The notes under the pieces are model-generated. The model ran no database searches. It saw nothing but the letters and a program-made list of their open reading frames with translations, and had not been told where the DNA came from. This document shows, piece after piece, positions 1 to 14,282 of a stretch of DNA of 64,000 nucleotides. Origin of the DNA: Escherichia coli (GTDB lineage: Bacteria > Pseudomonadota > Gammaproteobacteria > Enterobacterales > Enterobacteriaceae); assembly GCF_016026235.1 (NCBI RefSeq), contig NZ_CP065613.1, one strand, 5' to 3'. The first letter of the stretch is position 1. Each line of letters opens with the position of its first letter. Both the position numbers and the translations under genes were made by a program.

Positions 1-1
1 A

Positions 2-355
2 CACACCAAAGATAAGCTTTCCGGCTCCATCGATGCCAACCGCGACTTTGACGGCAGCGCCACCTCCCAGCAGCAGAACAGTCTGCGCGGGGAGATCACC
101 GTGTCCGTCCACGCGGTGCAGCCCAACGGCATCCTGGAAATTCGCGGCGAAAAATGGCTGACCCTCAACCAGGGCGATGAGTACATCCGTTTAAGCGGCC
201 TTGTGCGCGCCGACGACATCCAGAACGACAACTCGGTTTCCTCCCAGCGGATCGCCGATGCCCGCATCTCCTATGCCGGACGCGGCGCGTTAAGCGACGC
301 CAACGCCGCAGGCTGGCTGACGCGACTGTTTAACCATCCTCTGTTCCCGATTTAA
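2..355 (+). CDS. lfgH: Flagellar L-ring protein (FlgH family), 3' part; 5' end lies upstream of the window
   Basis: Open frame from window edge to TAA at 353-355; translation (…[28 protein letters not shown]…[14 protein letters not shown]) matches FlgH C-terminal region; position directly upstream of a FlgI homolog. Confidence 0.8.
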
Positions 356-369
356 TGCCGGAGAGTGCA

Positions 370-1470
370 ATGCAAAACTGGATAAAGGCCGCCGTTATCG
401 CCGTAAGCCTGGCGCTGCCCGGCGTGGCGCTGGCACAATCGCTGGAGTCGCTGGTCAACGTACAGGGCGTGCGTGAAAACCAACTGGTCGGCTACAGCCT
501 GGTGGTCGGCCTCGACGGCACCGGTGATAAAAACCAGGTCAAATTCACCAACCAGACCATCACCAATATGCTGCGCCAGTTCGGCGTGCAATTGCCGAAT
601 AAAATCGACCCGAAGGTGAAAAACGTCGCCGCAGTGGCGGTGAGCGCCACGTTGCCGCCGATGTACTCGCGCGGGCAGACCATTGATGTCACCGTCTCGT
701 CGATTGGCGATGCGAAAAGTATTCGCGGCGGCACCTTGTTGCTGACCCAGCTTCACGGCGCGGATGGCGAAGTGTATGCCCTGGCGCAGGGCTGCGTGGT
801 GGTCGGCGGGATGAACGCCACCGGGGCCAGCGGTTCCAGCGTGACGGTTAACACACCGACCGCTGGGTTAATTCCCAACGGCGCGACGGTGGAGCGCGAG
901 ATCCCCAGCGATTTTCAGATGGGCGATACCATCACGCTTAACCTGAAACGCCCGTCATTTAAAGACGCCAACAATATTGCGGCGGCGATTAACGCCTCGT
1001 TTGGCGGCATTGCCACGGCGCAGAGTTCCACCAACGTTACCGTGCGCGCGCCCACCAGCCCCGGCGCGCGGGTGGCGTTTATGTCGCAACTGGATGATGT
1101 GCAGGTGCAGGCGGAGAAAATCCGCGCCCGCGTGGTGTTTAACTCGCGTACCGGTACGGTGGTGATGGGCGATGGCGTTGCGCTACATGCGGCGGCGGTG
1201 TCTCACGGCAGTCTGACCGTCTCGATTAACGAAACCAGCAACGTCAGCCAGCCGAATGCCTTTGCGGGCGGGCGCACGGCGGTAACGCCGCAGAGCAATA
1301 TCGCGGTGAATCATGCGCGCCCGGGCGTGGTGAGTTTGCCGGAGTCGAGCAGCCTGAAAACGCTGGTCAATGCGTTGAACAGTTTGGGCGCGACGCCGGA
1401 CGACATTATGTCGATTTTACAGGCGTTGCATGAAGCGGGCGCACTGGATGCTGACCTGGAGGTGATCTGA
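370..1470 (+). CDS. lfgI: Flagellar P-ring protein (FlgI family), Flag-2 type
   Basis: 371-aa ORF with N-terminal signal peptide ([22 protein letters not shown]) and FlgI-like core; GGAGAG SD before ATG at 370; alternative ATG at 355 overlaps lfgH stop. Confidence 0.85.
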
Positions 1471-1769
1471 TGAAAGTTAACGCCAGCGGCGGGATTGACG
1501 GCAGCGATGCGTTAATGGGGCCGAAGGTTCAGGCCAATGATATCAAGCAGGCCGCGGAGCAGTTTGAGGCGATTTTTTTACGCAACATGCTGAAAGAGAT
1601 GCGTAAAACCAACGAGCTGTTTGATTCGAAAGATAACCCGTTTAACAGCGATTCGGTGCGCATGATGCAGGGGTTTTATGACGATGAGCTGTGTAACACC
1701 CTGGCGCAGCAGCACGGGATCGGGATTGCGGCGATGATTGTGAAGCAGTTGTCGCCGAAGCATAAATGA
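1470..1769 (+). CDS. lfgJ: Short FlgJ-like rod-binding protein (N-terminal domain only, no muramidase domain)
   Basis: 99-aa ORF, ATGA overlap with lfgI stop; motif AAEQFEAIFLRNMLKEMRK resembles FlgJ N-terminal rod-binding domain. Confidence 0.75.
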   Translation: MKVNASGGIDGSDALMGPKVQANDIKQAAEQFEAIFLRNMLKEMRKTNELFDSKDNPFNSDSVRMMQGFYDDELCNTLAQQHGIGIAAMIVKQLSPKHK

Positions 1770-1785
1770 GGTTCCGGCGTTCGGC

Positions 1786-11744: not shown

Positions 11745-11763
11745 TCACCAGGCGGATATAAAT

Positions 11764-12480
11764 ATGCGACAGGATGTATTCGAGTCGGAAGAATTTGCTG
11801 CCGCGCCGGTATTAACCCCGCAGCAGGAGAGCCACTACTTGCAGGCCTATTTACCGTTGGTGCGTAAAGTGGTGCGGCAACTTGCCCCGCAGTGTAATTG
11901 CATTATTGATCGTCAGGATATGGAACAAACGGCGTTAATGGGGCTGCTTAATGCCATCCGCCGCTACGGGCTGCCGGACGAAGGTTTTGCGGGCTATGCC
12001 GTGCACCGTATTCGCGGCGCGATCCTGGATGAGCTGCGCGCTCTCGACTGGCGACCGCGCCAGCTGCGACAGAAATATCATCAGATGAAAGATCTGATTC
12101 GCGAAACGCGCAAAAAACTGGGGCACGAACCGGAGTGGTCAGAACTGGCCGTGGAAGGGATCTCGCATGAAGATTATCTCGAATATCAGCAACTGGAAGG
12201 GGCGGAAACGCTCGCCAGCCTAGACGAACTGCTGAACGGCGAAGGGCCTGGCATTCTGCTTGCTGGCCGGGAGCTGGAAGATCAGTTTGTCACCCAGCAA
12301 ATGCTGCAACAGGCGCTTTCACAATTAAGCGAAAAAGAGCAACTGATCCTCTCCATGTATTACCAGCATGAGATGAATCTCAAAGAGATTGCGCTGGTAT
12401 TAGGGCTAACCGAGGCCCGAATTTGTCAACTGAATAAACAGATCGCGCAGAAAATTCGTGATTTTGTCTATCCGAATTAA
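11764..12480 (+). CDS. lafS: Sigma-28-type flagellar sigma factor
   Basis: 238-aa ORF with sigma-70 region 2/4 features (…YAVHRIRGAILDELRALDW… ; …LKEIALVLGLTEARICQLNKQIAQKIR). Confidence 0.85.
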   Translation: MRQDVFESEEFAAAPVLTPQQESHYLQAYLPLVRKVVRQLAPQCNCIIDRQDMEQTALMGLLNAIRRYGLPDEGFAGYAVHRIRGAILDELRALDWRPRQLRQKYHQMKDLIRETRKKLGHEPEWSELAVEGISHEDYLEYQQLEGAETLASLDELLNGEGPGILLAGRELEDQFVTQQMLQQALSQLSEKEQLILSMYYQHEMNLKEIALVLGLTEARICQLNKQIAQKIRDFVYPN

Positions 12481-12492
12481 AGTGAAGAAATC

Positions 12493-13356
12493 ATGCAAAA
12501 AATATTAGGTTTACTGGTGGTGCTCGGCTGCGTATTTGGCGGTTATTTTGAAGCGGGCGGGCAATTAGTGGCTATCTGGCAACCGGCGGAAATGATCATT
12601 ATTTTGGGTGCCGGTTTCGGGGCGATGATTATTGGTAACCCGAAACATGTGCTGAAAGAGATTGCCCATCAAATTAAAGGCGTAATCAGTAAAAAACAGC
12701 TCGGGCCGGAGTTTCAGCGCCAGCTATTAATGTGCCTGTATGAGTTGCTGGAAATGGTGCAAAACGGCGGCCTGCGCATGCTGGATCAACATATTGAGCA
12801 ACCGGAAGAGAGCACCATTTTCCAGAAATACCCGCTGGTGTTAACCCAGAAGCGGCTGGTGACCTTTATTGCCGATAACTTTCGCCTGATGGCGATGGGT
12901 AAAATCGACGCCCATGAACTGGAAGGCATTCTCGATCAGGAACTGGATACCGCCGAAGAGTCGCTGCTAACGCCGTCGCGCTCGCTGCAACGTACTGCCG
13001 AAGCGATGCCGGGATTTGGTATTTGTGCCGCCGTGCTGGGCATCATCATCACCATGCAGTCGATTGACGGCTCTATCGCCCTGATTGGCCTGAAAGTGGC
13101 GGCAGCGCTGGTGGGGACGTTTTTAGGCGTCTTTATCTGCTACTGCCTGATGGATCCGCTCGCCAACGCCATGGAACAACAGGCGCGGGCAGAACATTCT
13201 TTGCTGGAATGCGTGCGTACCGTGCTGGTGGCGCAGGCAGGCGGCAAACCGACGCTGCTGGCGGTGGATGCCGGGCGTAAGCTGCTGCATCTGGCATCTA
13301 AACCGACCTTCGCCAACCTCGACGCGTGGGTGAATGCGATGCTGGAGCAAGAATAA
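12493..13356 (+). CDS. lafT: Flagellar motor stator protein (MotA family)
   Basis: 287-aa ORF with MotA-like TM helices and conserved C-terminal region. Confidence 0.85.
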   Translation: MQKILGLLVVLGCVFGGYFEAGGQLVAIWQPAEMIIILGAGFGAMIIGNPKHVLKEIAHQIKGVISKKQLGPEFQRQLLMCLYELLEMVQNGGLRMLDQHIEQPEESTIFQKYPLVLTQKRLVTFIADNFRLMAMGKIDAHELEGILDQELDTAEESLLTPSRSLQRTAEAMPGFGICAAVLGIIITMQSIDGSIALIGLKVAAALVGTFLGVFICYCLMDPLANAMEQQARAEHSLLECVRTVLVAQAGGKPTLLAVDAGRKLLHLASKPTFANLDAWVNAMLEQE

Positions 13357-13358
13357 GC

Positions 13359-14282
13359 ATGAGAAAGACGGGCAACCGCCGCGAGCGTGGGGCAAAAACC
13401 ACCATCGTCCGGCGGCAGATCAAAAAGAATCATGCCGGGCACCACGGCGGGGCGTGGAAGGTGGCGTTCGCCGACTTTACTTTGGCAATGATGGCGCTGT
13501 TTATGACGCTGTGGATTGTCAACAGCGTCAGTAAATCCGAGCGTGAAAGCATTATCGCCGCGCTGCACGGGCAGTCGATTTTTAACGGTGGCGGGCTGTC
13601 GCCGTTAAATAAAATCAGCCCGTCTCATCCGCCAAAACCTGCCACCGTGGCGGTGCCGGAAGAGACGGAGAAAAAAGCGCGTGACGTCAATGAGAAAACG
13701 GCGCTGCTGAAGAAGAAATCCGCCACCGAGCTTGGCGAGCTGGCAACCAGTATCAACACTATTGCCCGTGATGCGCATATGGAAGCGAATCTGGAGATGG
13801 AGATTGTCCCGCAGGGATTACGCGTGCTGATTAAAGACGACCAGAATCGCAATATGTTCGAACGCGGCAGCGCGCAGATTATGCCGTTCTTTAAAACGCT
13901 GCTGGTGGAGCTCGCGCCAGTTTTCGACTCGCTCGATAACAAAATTATTATTACCGGGCATACCGATGCGATGGCCTACAAAAACAATATCTACAACAAC
14001 TGGAACCTTTCGGGCGATCGCGCGCTTTCGGCTCGTCGGGTGCTGGAAGAGGCCGGAATGCCGGAAGATAAAGTGATGCAGGTGAGCGCAATGGCGGACC
14101 AGATGCTGCTGGACGCCAAAAATCCGCAAAGCGCGGGCAACCGGCGCATTGAGATTATGGTGCTGACCAAAAGTGCGTCCGATACGTTGTATCAATACTT
14201 TGGTCAGCATGGAGATAAAGTGGTGCAGCCGCTGGTGAAAAAGCTGGATAAGCAGCAGGTGCTTTCGCAGCGAACGCGTTAA
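13359..14282 (+). CDS. lafU: Flagellar motor stator protein (MotB family) with OmpA-like peptidoglycan-binding domain
   Basis: ORF 13326-14282; ATG at 13359 follows lafT stop; single TM helix (FADFTLAMMALFMTLWIV) and OmpA-like C-domain (…NRRIEIMVL). Confidence 0.85.
   Translation: MRKTGNRRERGAKTTIVRRQIKKNHAGHHGGAWKVAFADFTLAMMALFMTLWIVNSVSKSERESIIAALHGQSIFNGGGLSPLNKISPSHPPKPATVAVPEETEKKARDVNEKTALLKKKSATELGELATSINTIARDAHMEANLEMEIVPQGLRVLIKDDQNRNMFERGSAQIMPFFKTLLVELAPVFDSLDNKIIITGHTDAMAYKNNIYNNWNLSGDRALSARRVLEEAGMPEDKVMQVSAMADQMLLDAKNPQSAGNRRIEIMVLTKSASDTLYQYFGQHGDKVVQPLVKKLDKQQVLSQRTR

What the first reader, a model, noticed from the sequence alone, without database searches (positions are those of the whole stretch)
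1..14282. Distal half of the Flag-2 lateral-flagellar locus present with intact reading frames
Basal-body, hook-associated, flagellin, cap, chaperone, hook-length, sigma-28 and MotAB homologs (lfgH'-lfgL, lafW/Z/A-F/S/T/U) are contiguous with no internal stops or frameshifts visible here. From memory, K-12 retains only short remnants at this position beside dinB. Whether the system is functional depends on the proximal half, which lies outside the window. LfgJ is only 99 aa and lacks the FlgJ muramidase domain.
Basis: partly seen in the sequence, partly recalled or inferred. Interest (0 to 1): 0.5.

Follow-up and report, generated by a model that had tools for sequence, protein, structure and literature searches.

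The report
Known Flag-2 lateral-flagella genes, distal half
This stretch is the well-known second (Flag-2, lateral-type) flagellar gene cluster of E. coli, with every gene in the window intact. It is ordinary, and identical clones have lost the hook gene just outside the window, so the system is probably dead.

Summary
Window 1-14282 holds the 3' end of lfgH, then lfgI, lfgJ, lfgK, lfgL, lafW, lafZ (minus strand) and lafA through lafU, followed by dinB. All 16 products align end to end, without gaps, to the E. coli 042 Flag-2 proteins at 92-100% identity. dN/dS against 042 is about 0.06. LfgJ is 99 aa and carries only the rod-binding domain, as in 042. K-12 has only lfhA'/lafU' pseudogenes beside dinB.

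The locus is common: 1265 of 5426 complete E. coli genomes carry at least 80% of this stretch. It is already described by Ren 2005 and De Maayer 2020.

I extended the window upstream using contigs that are 100% identical to it. In these clones cluster 1 (lfhA to lfiJ) is intact. However, the hook gene lfgE is removed by a 1231-bp deletion that joins a REP element to the gene's 3' end. An ISEc60 also sits in the VR1 lysine-methylase gene.

Sister strains show further decay: lfgH::IS and an lfgL nonsense codon in one, a lafW frameshift in another. The most likely reading is a recently inactivated Flag-2 locus without a hook, whose distal half has not yet picked up lesions. It is already known and of low interest.

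The parts
2..355 (+). lfgH, 3' part (last 117 codons plus stop); L-ring protein
   Evidence: NCBIfam FlgH, residues 1-117 = profile 104-220. 100% identical to 042 LfgH residues 105-221. Continues to a full 221-aa ORF in the identical contig L006. No ISEc60 here, unlike FDAARGOS_943.
370..1470 (+). lfgI, P-ring protein (366 aa)
   Evidence: NCBIfam FlgI 449 bits. 99.2% identical to 042 over the full length.
1470..1769 (+). lfgJ, rod-binding protein (99 aa) with no muramidase domain
   Evidence: Matches only positions 20-91 of the 294-position FlgJ model. Pfam Rod-binding only. 99% identical to the 99-aa 042 LfgJ.
1773..2062 (.). BIME: 3 tandem 97-bp units of paired REP elements between lfgJ and lfgK
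   Evidence: TRF period 97, 3.0 copies, 97% matches. Rfam naRNA4 hits at 1845-1922 and 1942-2019. Copy number differs in FDAARGOS_943. Including this segment raised the number of BLAST places from 7,032 to 142,849.
2098..3474 (+). lfgK, hook-associated protein 1 (458 aa)
   Evidence: TIGR02492 352 bits. 98.3% identical to 042.
3489..4418 (+). lfgL, hook-associated protein 3 (309 aa), intact here
   Evidence: TIGR02550 196 bits. 97.7% identical to 042. Window 3822 is C (CAG), whereas FDAARGOS_943 has T (TAG, a nonsense codon).
4435..5412 (+). lafW, Flag-2-specific protein (325 aa); literature calls it a putative hook-associated protein
   Evidence: 95.7% identical to 042 LafW. No NCBIfam or Pfam family. 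Named as a Flag-2 marker in PMC6993521.
5413..5714 (.). Variable region 2, reduced to 302 bp: a 47-codon remnant of an HTH antitoxin gene (5502-5645) plus one REP
   Evidence: 042 carries a RelE/ParE toxin plus an HTH gene here. Only a 44-aa, 59% match to the HTH protein remains in the window. Sequence read.
5715..6557 (-). lafZ, ToxR/CadC-like regulator with an N-terminal winged helix (280 aa); low-GC segment
   Evidence: Pfam Trans_reg_C, residues 25-97, E 3.6e-13. Weak NCBIfam CadC match. 96.1% identical to 042. GC is 0.39-0.46 here.
7043..7957 (+). lafA, lateral flagellin (304 aa)
   Evidence: NF033376 LafA 666.9 bits against a cut-off of 440. 100% identical to 042 LafA.
7960..8040 (+). 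REP element followed by a GC-rich hairpin with a T-rich tail (likely lafA terminator)
   Evidence: Read directly: ACACCGCCTGCGGGCGGTGT followed by TGTGCTTTCT. The generic terminator scan did not list it.
8117..8131 (+). Sigma-54-type -24/-12 motif, TGGCACgccttTTGC, 32 nt upstream of the lafB start codon
   Evidence: Pattern match. Identical in 042 and 32F4. The match count over the whole window is not above chance. Function is inferred.
8164..9480 (+). lafB, filament cap (FliD homologue, 438 aa)
   Evidence: NCBIfam FliD. 96.1% identical to 042.
9503..9895 (+). lafC, FliS-type flagellin chaperone (130 aa)
   Evidence: TIGR00208 79 bits. 100% identical to 042.
9900..10211 (+). lafD, FliT-like protein (103 aa)
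   Evidence: 92.2% identical to 042 LafD. No family hit. RefSeq calls the FDAARGOS_943 copy FliT.
10208..11269 (+). lafE, hook-length control protein (FliK-like, 353 aa)
   Evidence: Weak YscP-domain hit. Pfam Flg_hook precomputed for the identical product. 97.5% identical to 042.
11277..11744 (+). lafF, FliL-family protein (155 aa)
   Evidence: NCBIfam FliL, weak. 100% identical to 042.
11764..12480 (+). lafS, sigma-28 (FliA-type) factor (238 aa)
   Evidence: NF009091 447 bits against a cut-off of 339. 98.3% identical to 042.
12493..13356 (+). lafT, MotA-type stator protein (287 aa)
   Evidence: TIGR03818 375 bits. 99.7% identical to 042.
13359..14282 (+). lafU, MotB-type stator protein (307 aa); last gene of Flag-2
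   Evidence: NF005273 LafU 578 bits against a cut-off of 383. 99.0% identical to 042. K-12 keeps only a 756-bp pseudogene of it.
14353..15408 (+). dinB, the conserved chromosomal flank that marks the Flag-2 insertion site
   Evidence: NF002677 546 bits. Same neighbour in 042, 32F4, FDAARGOS_943 and K-12.

Best explanation
Window 1-14282 is the distal part of the E. coli Flag-2 (lateral-type, secondary) flagellar locus. It covers the end of cluster 2 (lfgH'-lfgL) and all of cluster 3 (lafW, lafZ, lafA-F, lafS, lafT, lafU), at the usual chromosomal site next to dinB.

The genes encode:
- the L and P rings;
- a rod-binding LfgJ;
- the hook-filament junction proteins;
- the lateral flagellin with its cap and chaperones;
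- a hook-length ruler;
- FliL;
- a dedicated sigma-28;
- a MotAB-type stator.

All are sequence-intact, and across E. coli lineages they have evolved under strong purifying selection.

The system they belong to is most probably no longer able to build a flagellum in this clone. Contigs 100% identical to the window lack the hook gene lfgE. A 1231-bp deletion joins a REP element to the gene's 3' end through a shared TATCAGGCC, leaving only the last 22 codons. An ISEc60 also sits in the VR1 lysine-N-methylase gene.

By analogy with the flagellar assembly checkpoint (inferred, not shown), a basal body without a hook cannot export the anti-sigma factor LfgM. LafS would then stay blocked, and the late genes in this window (lafA, lafTU) would stay silent. 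The distal half looks intact simply because the inactivation is recent. Sister strains already show extra lesions.
For: Identity:
- Full-length, gapless alignments to the 042 Flag-2 proteins at 92-100% identity.
- LafA and LafU pass the lateral-specific NCBIfam models above their cut-offs.
- The Flag-2-only markers lafW and lafZ are present (PMC6993521).
- dinB is adjacent.
- 1265 of 5426 complete E. coli genomes carry at least 80% of the stretch.

Past selection: pN/pS against 042 is 0.059 over about 12.8 kb of coding sequence.

Upstream state:
- L006 and L009 are 100% identical to window 1-11470.
- L015 and L012, both from contig AAZDLY010000026.1, are 100% identical to window 5405-25857 and 31137-52279.
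- In L006, lfgD is followed after 101 bp by lfgF, and only LfgE residues 379-400 remain.
- ISEc60 lies at L006 2722-4017.
- Contig AAZDLY010000026.1 ends 5610 bp upstream of window position 1. That is within about 5 bp of the L006 ISEc60 junction, and only if lfgE is deleted.
- The same junction is in FDAARGOS_943 and L008.
- Cluster 1 genes are all full length in this clade.

Ongoing decay in sister strains:
- lfgH::ISEc60 and lfgL Q112* in FDAARGOS_943.
- A lafW frameshift in L008.

Literature: even a Flag-2 locus reported to have an intact lfgC, in ST131 strain EC958, gave no LafA expression and no motility (PMC4637896).
Against: - The proximal half is not in the window. Its state is inferred from identical or near-identical contigs, not read from the source genome.
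- The checkpoint logic (no hook, so no LfgM export, so LafS blocked) is transferred from the primary system and from Vibrio lateral flagella. It is not tested for Flag-2.
- No lesion at all is seen in the 16 window genes, so a selected residual function cannot be excluded.
- The excess of nonsynonymous changes within the clade (9 N: 8 S) differs from the long-term ratio (p = 0.0007). It does not differ significantly from neighbouring core genes (6:4 against 2:6, p = 0.19). Relaxed selection is therefore not demonstrated.
Confidence: 0.8

Rival explanations
1. The source genome carries a complete, functional Flag-2 system. The window is the distal half of a working lateral-flagella locus that gives swarming or viscous-medium motility under conditions not yet defined.
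For: - All 16 genes in the window are intact.
- Long-term dN/dS is 0.06.
- Cluster 1 is intact in the clade.
- The window lacks the lfgH IS insertion and the lfgL stop seen in FDAARGOS_943.
- De Maayer 2020 reports that 78% of flag-2 loci have the full complement of conserved proteins.
Against: - Every contig at 99.7% identity or more that reaches the lfgD-lfgF interval has lfgE deleted: L006, L008 and FDAARGOS_943.
- The end of the 100%-identical contig fits the deleted arrangement.
- VR1 modification genes are disrupted.
- No E. coli Flag-2 system turned up as functional in the papers I could read. EC958 showed no expression.
Confidence: 0.1
2. The distal genes are kept intact by selection for a role that does not need a Flag-2 hook. 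Candidates are LafS/LafZ regulatory cross-talk, LafT/LafU stators serving the primary motor, or LafA as a secreted or immunomodulatory protein.
For: There are no disrupting mutations in about 12.8 kb of coding sequence, although the lfgE deletion predates the clade's last common ancestor. De Maayer 2020 speculates on non-motility roles for Flag-2.
Against: - Clade diversity is only about 0.1% (10 SNPs in 14 kb), so few disruptive hits are expected by chance.
- Sister strains have nonsense, frameshift and IS lesions in exactly these genes.
- Export of LafA or LafB would need the Flag-2 export gate plus a hook-dependent specificity switch.
Confidence: 0.07
3. The ORFs belong to the primary (Flag-1) peritrichous flagellar system.
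For: Generic FlgI/FlgK/FliD/FliS/MotA family hits.
Against: - 92-100% identity to the 042 Flag-2 proteins.
- The lateral-specific LafA and LafU models pass their cut-offs.
- lafW and lafZ have no Flag-1 counterpart.
- The location beside dinB and the gene order are those of Flag-2.
- LfgJ is single-domain.
Confidence: 0.01

Closest known systems
Flag-2 locus of enteroaggregative E. coli 042 (Ren et al. 2005, J Bacteriol 187:1430; NC_017626.1 about 284.7-323.2 kb)
   Same: Same chromosomal site, with lafU next to dinB. Same gene order from lfgH to lafU. Every protein has the same length and is 92-100% identical. LfgJ is 99 aa in both.
   Different: - 042 has a RelE/ParE toxin plus HTH pair in VR2 between lafW and lafZ. 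The window keeps only a 47-codon remnant.
- 042 has a frameshifted lfgC and an intact lfgE. The window's clone has an intact lfgC and a deleted lfgE.
- 042 has yafNO between dinB and yafP. The window does not.
E. coli FDAARGOS_943 (NZ_CP065615.1), the closest complete genome
   Same: 99.9% identical over window 89-30000. Same lfgE deletion junction, the only such genome among 5426 complete genomes.
   Different: FDAARGOS_943 additionally has:
- ISEc60 in lfgH;
- an lfgL Q112* nonsense codon;
- about 1.5 more BIME units;
- IS insertions in VR1;
- several IS-linked rearrangements further along the window.
Lateral flagellar (laf) systems of Vibrio parahaemolyticus, Aeromonas hydrophila and Plesiomonas shigelloides
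   Same: Same gene repertoire and naming (lfg/laf). A dedicated sigma-28. A sigma-54 activator, LafK, in the proximal half. A proton-type MotAB stator. Flag-2 is described as resembling these systems.
   Different: Those systems are shown experimentally to make lateral flagella for swarming. None of the papers I could read showed this for E. coli Flag-2. Sequence relationship to them was not measured here.
K-12 lfhA'/lafU' remnant (b0229, b0230)
   Same: Same site beside dinB. The lafU 3' part is homologous.
   Different: K-12 has lost everything between lfhA and lafU. The window retains the whole distal half.

Membership tests
E. coli/Enterobacterales Flag-2 locus | Chromosomal position: distal end (lafU) directly upstream of dinB | tested here: met
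   lafU ends at 14282 and dinB starts at 14353. Same in 042, 32F4 and FDAARGOS_943.
E. coli/Enterobacterales Flag-2 locus | Gene order lfgH-I-J-K-L, lafW, (VR2), lafZ (opposite strand), lafA-B-C-D-E-F-S-T-U | tested here: met
   tblastn of the 042 proteins is colinear, full length and gap-free.
E. coli/Enterobacterales Flag-2 locus | Marker genes absent from Flag-1: lafW and lafZ (lafK lies in the proximal half) | tested here: met
   lafW is 95.7% and lafZ 96.1% identical to 042. Marker status per PMC6993521. lafK is present in clade contigs outside the window.
E. coli/Enterobacterales Flag-2 locus | Lateral-type flagellin LafA and stator LafU (NCBIfam lateral-specific models) | tested here: met
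   NF033376 666.9 bits (cut-off 440). NF005273 578.3 bits (cut-off 383).
E. coli/Enterobacterales Flag-2 locus | Full complement of the 39 conserved Flag-2 proteins (complete locus) | tested here: not met
   This was tested on contigs identical to the window, not on the window itself. lfgE is deleted in L006, L008 and FDAARGOS_943. The window portion itself is complete.
Functional lateral flagella (Vibrio/Aeromonas type) | Assembly of lateral flagella and surface or viscous-medium motility | not testable with these tools
   Needs electron microscopy, motility assays and a LafA western blot. Predicted negative because of the lfgE deletion.
Bifunctional FlgJ (beta/gamma-proteobacterial type) | C-terminal muramidase (glucosaminidase) domain fused to the rod-binding domain | tested here: not met
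   LfgJ is 99 aa. It matches only positions 20-91 of the 294-position TIGR02541 model, and Pfam gives Rod-binding only. It is a single-domain FlgJ, as in 042.

The most novel reading that the evidence does not exclude
In a clade that lost the Flag-2 hook gene, the distal genes (sigma-28 LafS, regulator LafZ, stator LafTU, flagellin LafA) are still kept intact by selection, because they have been co-opted. One example would be stators or regulators acting on the primary flagellum or on other regulons.
Probability: 0.05. Interest if true: 0.5.

Novelty: already known. Interest (0 to 1): 0.12.

Why it matters
It matters little beyond annotation. Flag-2 was described in 2005, surveyed across Enterobacterales in 2020, and is present in about a quarter of E. 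coli. The only added value is a small case study of gene-cluster decay. A clade-specific deletion joining a REP element to lfgE removed the hook gene. The rest of the roughly 40-kb locus is still almost lesion-free, and sister strains are picking up independent IS, nonsense and frameshift hits. It also serves as a caution: 'all ORFs intact in the window' does not imply a working system.

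Tried and rejected
- **Sigma-28 promoter.** A scan for TAAAG-N15-GCCGATAA with up to 3 mismatches found nothing upstream of lafA, lafT or lfgK. By eye there is a weak TAAGTTT-N11-GTCGTTTT at about 6973-6998, which I did not pursue.
- **Sigma-54 motif.** The scan is not enriched over chance in the window (4 matches against 3.4 expected). Only the lafB-proximal site is positionally convincing and conserved. No clear site was found upstream of lfgK or lfgB.
- **Generic promoter and terminator scan.** It gave no usable signal. Terminators were at chance level.
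- **LafW.** Pfam gave no domain, so its 'hook-associated' label rests on the literature only.
- **Ren et al. 2005 (PMC545627).** The paper is not held. Statements about it come from citing papers and my own knowledge.
- **Relaxed selection in the lfgE-deleted clade.** The test is significant against the long-term ratio but not against adjacent core genes. I make no claim from it.
- **Source assembly.** I could not name it with certainty. I found 100%-identical contigs (AAZDLY010000026.1, JARKNJ010000001.1) but could not fetch the AAZDLY contig's own lfgD-lfgF interval.
- **LfgJ literature search.** It found nothing useful.

Full report

Yes. The ORF list shows a nearly uninterrupted run of plus-strand ORFs from position 2 to 14282, with one minus-strand ORF at 5715-6614.

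NCBIfam assigns most of them:
- FlgH: C-terminal 117 residues only, matching profile positions 104-220.
- FlgI, FlgK, FlgL, FliD, FliS and FliL.
- FlgJ-like: only the N-terminal rod-binding part matches.
- Lateral flagellin LafA: 666.9 bits against a cut-off of 440.
- A FliA-type sigma factor: 447 bits.
- MotA.
- The 'lateral flagellar export/assembly protein LafU': 578 bits against a cut-off of 383.

LafE gave only a weak YscP-domain hit in NCBIfam, with Pfam Flg_hook on record for the identical product. LafW and LafD have no family hit. LafZ has an N-terminal winged-helix Trans_reg_C domain, the ToxR/CadC type.

I took the annotated Flag-2 proteins of E. coli 042 and ran tblastn against the window. 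All 16 align over their full length without a single gap, at 92.2-100% identity, and they are colinear. So 'contiguous, with no internal stops or frameshifts' is correct.

The refined coordinates are:
- lfgH' 2-355
- lfgI 370-1470
- lfgJ 1470-1769
- lfgK 2098-3474
- lfgL 3489-4418
- lafW 4435-5412
- lafZ 5715-6557 (minus strand)
- lafA 7043-7957
- lafB 8164-9480
- lafC 9503-9895
- lafD 9900-10211
- lafE 10208-11269
- lafF 11277-11744
- lafS 11764-12480
- lafT 12493-13356
- lafU 13359-14282

dinB follows at 14353.

**2. Not the primary flagellar system**

- The proteins are near-identical to 042 Flag-2.
- lafW and lafZ are Flag-2-specific markers with no Flag-1 counterpart (PMC6993521).
- The lateral-specific NCBIfam models for LafA and LafU pass their curated cut-offs.
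- The cluster sits at the Flag-2 site next to dinB, as in 042, 32F4 and FDAARGOS_943.
- K-12 MG1655 has only the lfhA and lafU pseudogenes there.

**3. LfgJ**

LfgJ is 99 aa and matches only positions 20-91 of the 294-position FlgJ model. Pfam gives Rod-binding only. The 042, 32F4 and FDAARGOS_943 copies are also 300 bp and are annotated 'rod-binding protein'. The missing muramidase domain is therefore the normal state of Flag-2, not a truncation. From my own knowledge, single-domain FlgJ proteins are common outside the primary systems of beta- and gamma-proteobacteria, and they rely on a separate peptidoglycan hydrolase.

**4. How common and how conserved**

Of 5426 complete E. coli genomes, 1265 (23%) carry at least 80% of window 2100-14300. 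This agrees with the 24 of 100 E. coli strains in De Maayer et al. 2020.

Only one complete genome, FDAARGOS_943, is at least 99% identical. All the others are 96.8% or lower. The adjacent core flank is about 98.8% identical to many genomes. So this is a somewhat divergent Flag-2 allele belonging to a rare clade.

Between the window and 042 there are 483.5 synonymous and 94.5 nonsynonymous differences. That gives pN/pS = 0.059, with no gene above 0.2. The genes have therefore been under strong purifying selection over most of their history.

**5. Non-coding anatomy**

- **lfgJ-lfgK spacer.** It holds three tandem 97-bp units, each a pair of REP elements, forming a BIME (sequence). Rfam scores two of them as naRNA4. 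Copy number varies between strains.
- **VR2, between lafW and lafZ.** It is only 302 bp. It holds a 47-codon remnant of the HTH antitoxin that is paired with a RelE/ParE toxin in 042, plus one REP.
- **lafZ and the 485-bp lafZ-lafA spacer.** These are AT-rich, with GC of 0.39-0.46.
- **Downstream of lafA.** A REP and a GC-rich hairpin with a T-rich tail follow the gene.
- **Upstream of lafB.** A -24/-12 motif, TGGCACgccttTTGC, lies 32 nt upstream of the start codon and is conserved in 042 and 32F4. This fits control by sigma-54 and LafK, but that is inference. The motif count over the whole window is not above chance.
- **Sigma-28.** No convincing consensus site was found upstream of lafA.

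**6. Extending the window upstream**

An exact-protein look-up with the window's LfgI returned contigs L006 (GCA_031665325.1) and L009. Both are 100% identical to window 1-11470. Look-ups with YafP and a distal oxidoreductase returned two stretches of one contig, AAZDLY010000026.1 of GCA_017137435.1. These are 100% identical to window 5405-25857 and 31137-52279. The match includes a 1-bp insertion in paoD that distinguishes the window from FDAARGOS_943.

The state of the proximal half in these clones is as follows.
- **lfgE is deleted.** In L006, lfgD is followed after 101 bp by lfgF. Alignment to 32F4 and 042 shows a 1231-bp deletion. It joins a REP element downstream of lfgD to the 3' end of lfgE through a shared TATCAGGCC. 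Only LfgE residues 379-400 remain.
- **The junction is clade-specific.** It is also in L008 and FDAARGOS_943. Among the complete genomes it occurs in only 1 of 5426, that is 1 of the 1279 with any match to the query.
- **VR1 is disrupted.** L006 carries an ISEc60 at 2722-4017 inside the VR1 lysine-N-methylase gene. The VR1 glycosyltransferase is split into 270-aa and 558-aa pieces in the common clade type.
- **The contig end fits the deletion.** Contig AAZDLY010000026.1 ends 5610 bp upstream of window position 1. In L006 that point is within about 5 bp of the ISEc60 junction. The coincidence holds only if lfgE is deleted there too.
- **Everything else is full length.** Cluster 1 (lfhA, lfhB, lfiR, Q, P, N, M, lafK, lfiE-J) is full length in the clade. 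So are lfgN, lfgM, lfgA-D and lfgF-H.

**7. Ongoing decay in sister strains**

- FDAARGOS_943 has ISEc60 in lfgH, with a 12-bp target duplication at window 89-100. It also has a CAG-to-TAG nonsense codon in lfgL at window 3822, and IS elements in VR1.
- L008 has a frameshifted lafW.

Within the clade I counted 9 nonsynonymous changes (one of them a nonsense codon), 8 synonymous changes and one frameshift in Flag-2 genes. This differs from the long-term ratio (Fisher p = 0.0007). It does not differ significantly from adjacent core genes (6:4 against 2:6, p = 0.19). Relaxed selection is therefore plausible but not demonstrated.

**8. Most likely mechanism**

Shown: the window encodes the outer basal-body rings, the hook-filament junction, the filament with its cap and chaperones, the hook-length ruler, FliL, sigma-28 and the stator of a lateral-type flagellum.

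Inferred, from the primary flagellar system and from the Vibrio and Aeromonas lateral systems (own knowledge):
- LafK with sigma-54 would drive the early and middle genes, including the lafB-to-lafU operon that encodes LafS.
- When the hook is complete, the export apparatus would switch specificity through LafE and LfhB, and would export the anti-sigma factor LfgM.
- That would free LafS to transcribe lafA and other late genes.

Without LfgE no hook can form, so this switch should never occur. The clone is therefore expected to make no lateral flagella, even though the distal half is intact.

A Flag-2 locus reported to have an intact lfgC, in ST131 strain EC958, showed no LafA expression and gave no motility under the laboratory conditions tested (PMC4637896). 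Flag-2 function has been shown in Yersinia enterocolitica and Plesiomonas shigelloides, as cited in PMC11420993. None of the papers I could read showed it for E. coli.

**9. Verdict**

The observation and the interpretation are both correct. The feature is a known, common, well-described locus.

The only new detail lies outside the window. This clone's locus has most probably been inactivated recently by a deletion joining a REP element to the hook gene.

Novelty is 'already known' and interest is low. The most novel reading still open is selective retention of the distal genes for a function that does not need the hook. The data do not exclude it, but the clade's very low diversity and the lesions in sister strains make it unlikely (about 5%).

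Noticed in passing
window 1773-2062: The spacer between lfgJ and lfgK is a BIME: three tandem 97-bp units of paired REP elements. Rfam scores two units as naRNA4 (84 bits against a gathering score of 59.5). Unit number differs between otherwise 99.9%-identical strains.
   Followed up: partly
L006 7520-7650 (about 2.1 kb upstream of window position 1 in a contig 100% identical to the window): A 1231-bp deletion removes the Flag-2 hook gene lfgE. It joins a REP element after lfgD to the lfgE 3' end through a shared TATCAGGCC. The junction occurs in only 1 of 5426 complete E. coli genomes (FDAARGOS_943).
   Followed up: yes
window 5413-5714: Variable region 2 is reduced to 302 bp. It holds a 47-codon ORF (5502-5645), a 59%-identical remnant of the HTH antitoxin that sits beside a RelE/ParE toxin in E. 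coli 042, plus a REP element.
   Followed up: partly
window 14353-15857: The dinB stop overlaps the yafP start. The yafN-yafO toxin-antitoxin pair that lies between them in K-12 and 042 is absent, as it also is in 32F4 and FDAARGOS_943.
   Followed up: no
window 25661 (paoD, minus strand, about 25193-26150): One extra A relative to FDAARGOS_943 frameshifts paoD, the molybdenum cofactor insertion chaperone of the PaoABC aldehyde oxidoreductase. The same base is present in the 100%-identical contig AAZDLY010000026.1, so it is either real or a shared assembly error.
   Followed up: partly
window 38178-45532: This 7.35-kb stretch carries ecpR, the ykgM/ykgO ribosomal-protein paralogues, ykgR, an FMN oxidoreductase, a hydrolase and LysR regulators. 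It is missing from FDAARGOS_943, where an IS1 sits. FDAARGOS_943 also carries ISEc60, IS1 and IS600 copies that the window lacks at about 48.0, 48.3 and 50.8 kb.
   Followed up: partly
window 24602-24674 and downstream: tRNA-Thr (thrW) is followed directly by a LysR-family gene fragment and the paoDCBA operon. No prophage or island is integrated at this tRNA.
   Followed up: no
window 31035-31233: Rfam match to IS009 (188 bits against a gathering score of 117) between yagU and ykgJ.
   Followed up: no
window 16100-16710: Short remnants of rtcB and prfH (release-factor-H-like) lie between yafP and pepD, as in K-12 (ykfJ/prfH pseudogenes). 042 has the full rtcB-prfH pair.
   Followed up: no
L006 2722-4017 and L020 18551-20978 (outside the window, same clade): ISEc60 is inserted in the Flag-2 VR1 lysine-N-methylase (FliB-like) gene. 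The VR1 glycosyltransferase is split into 270-aa and 558-aa pieces in most clade members. ISEc60 sits at different Flag-2 positions in different clade members, which suggests recent activity.
   Followed up: partly
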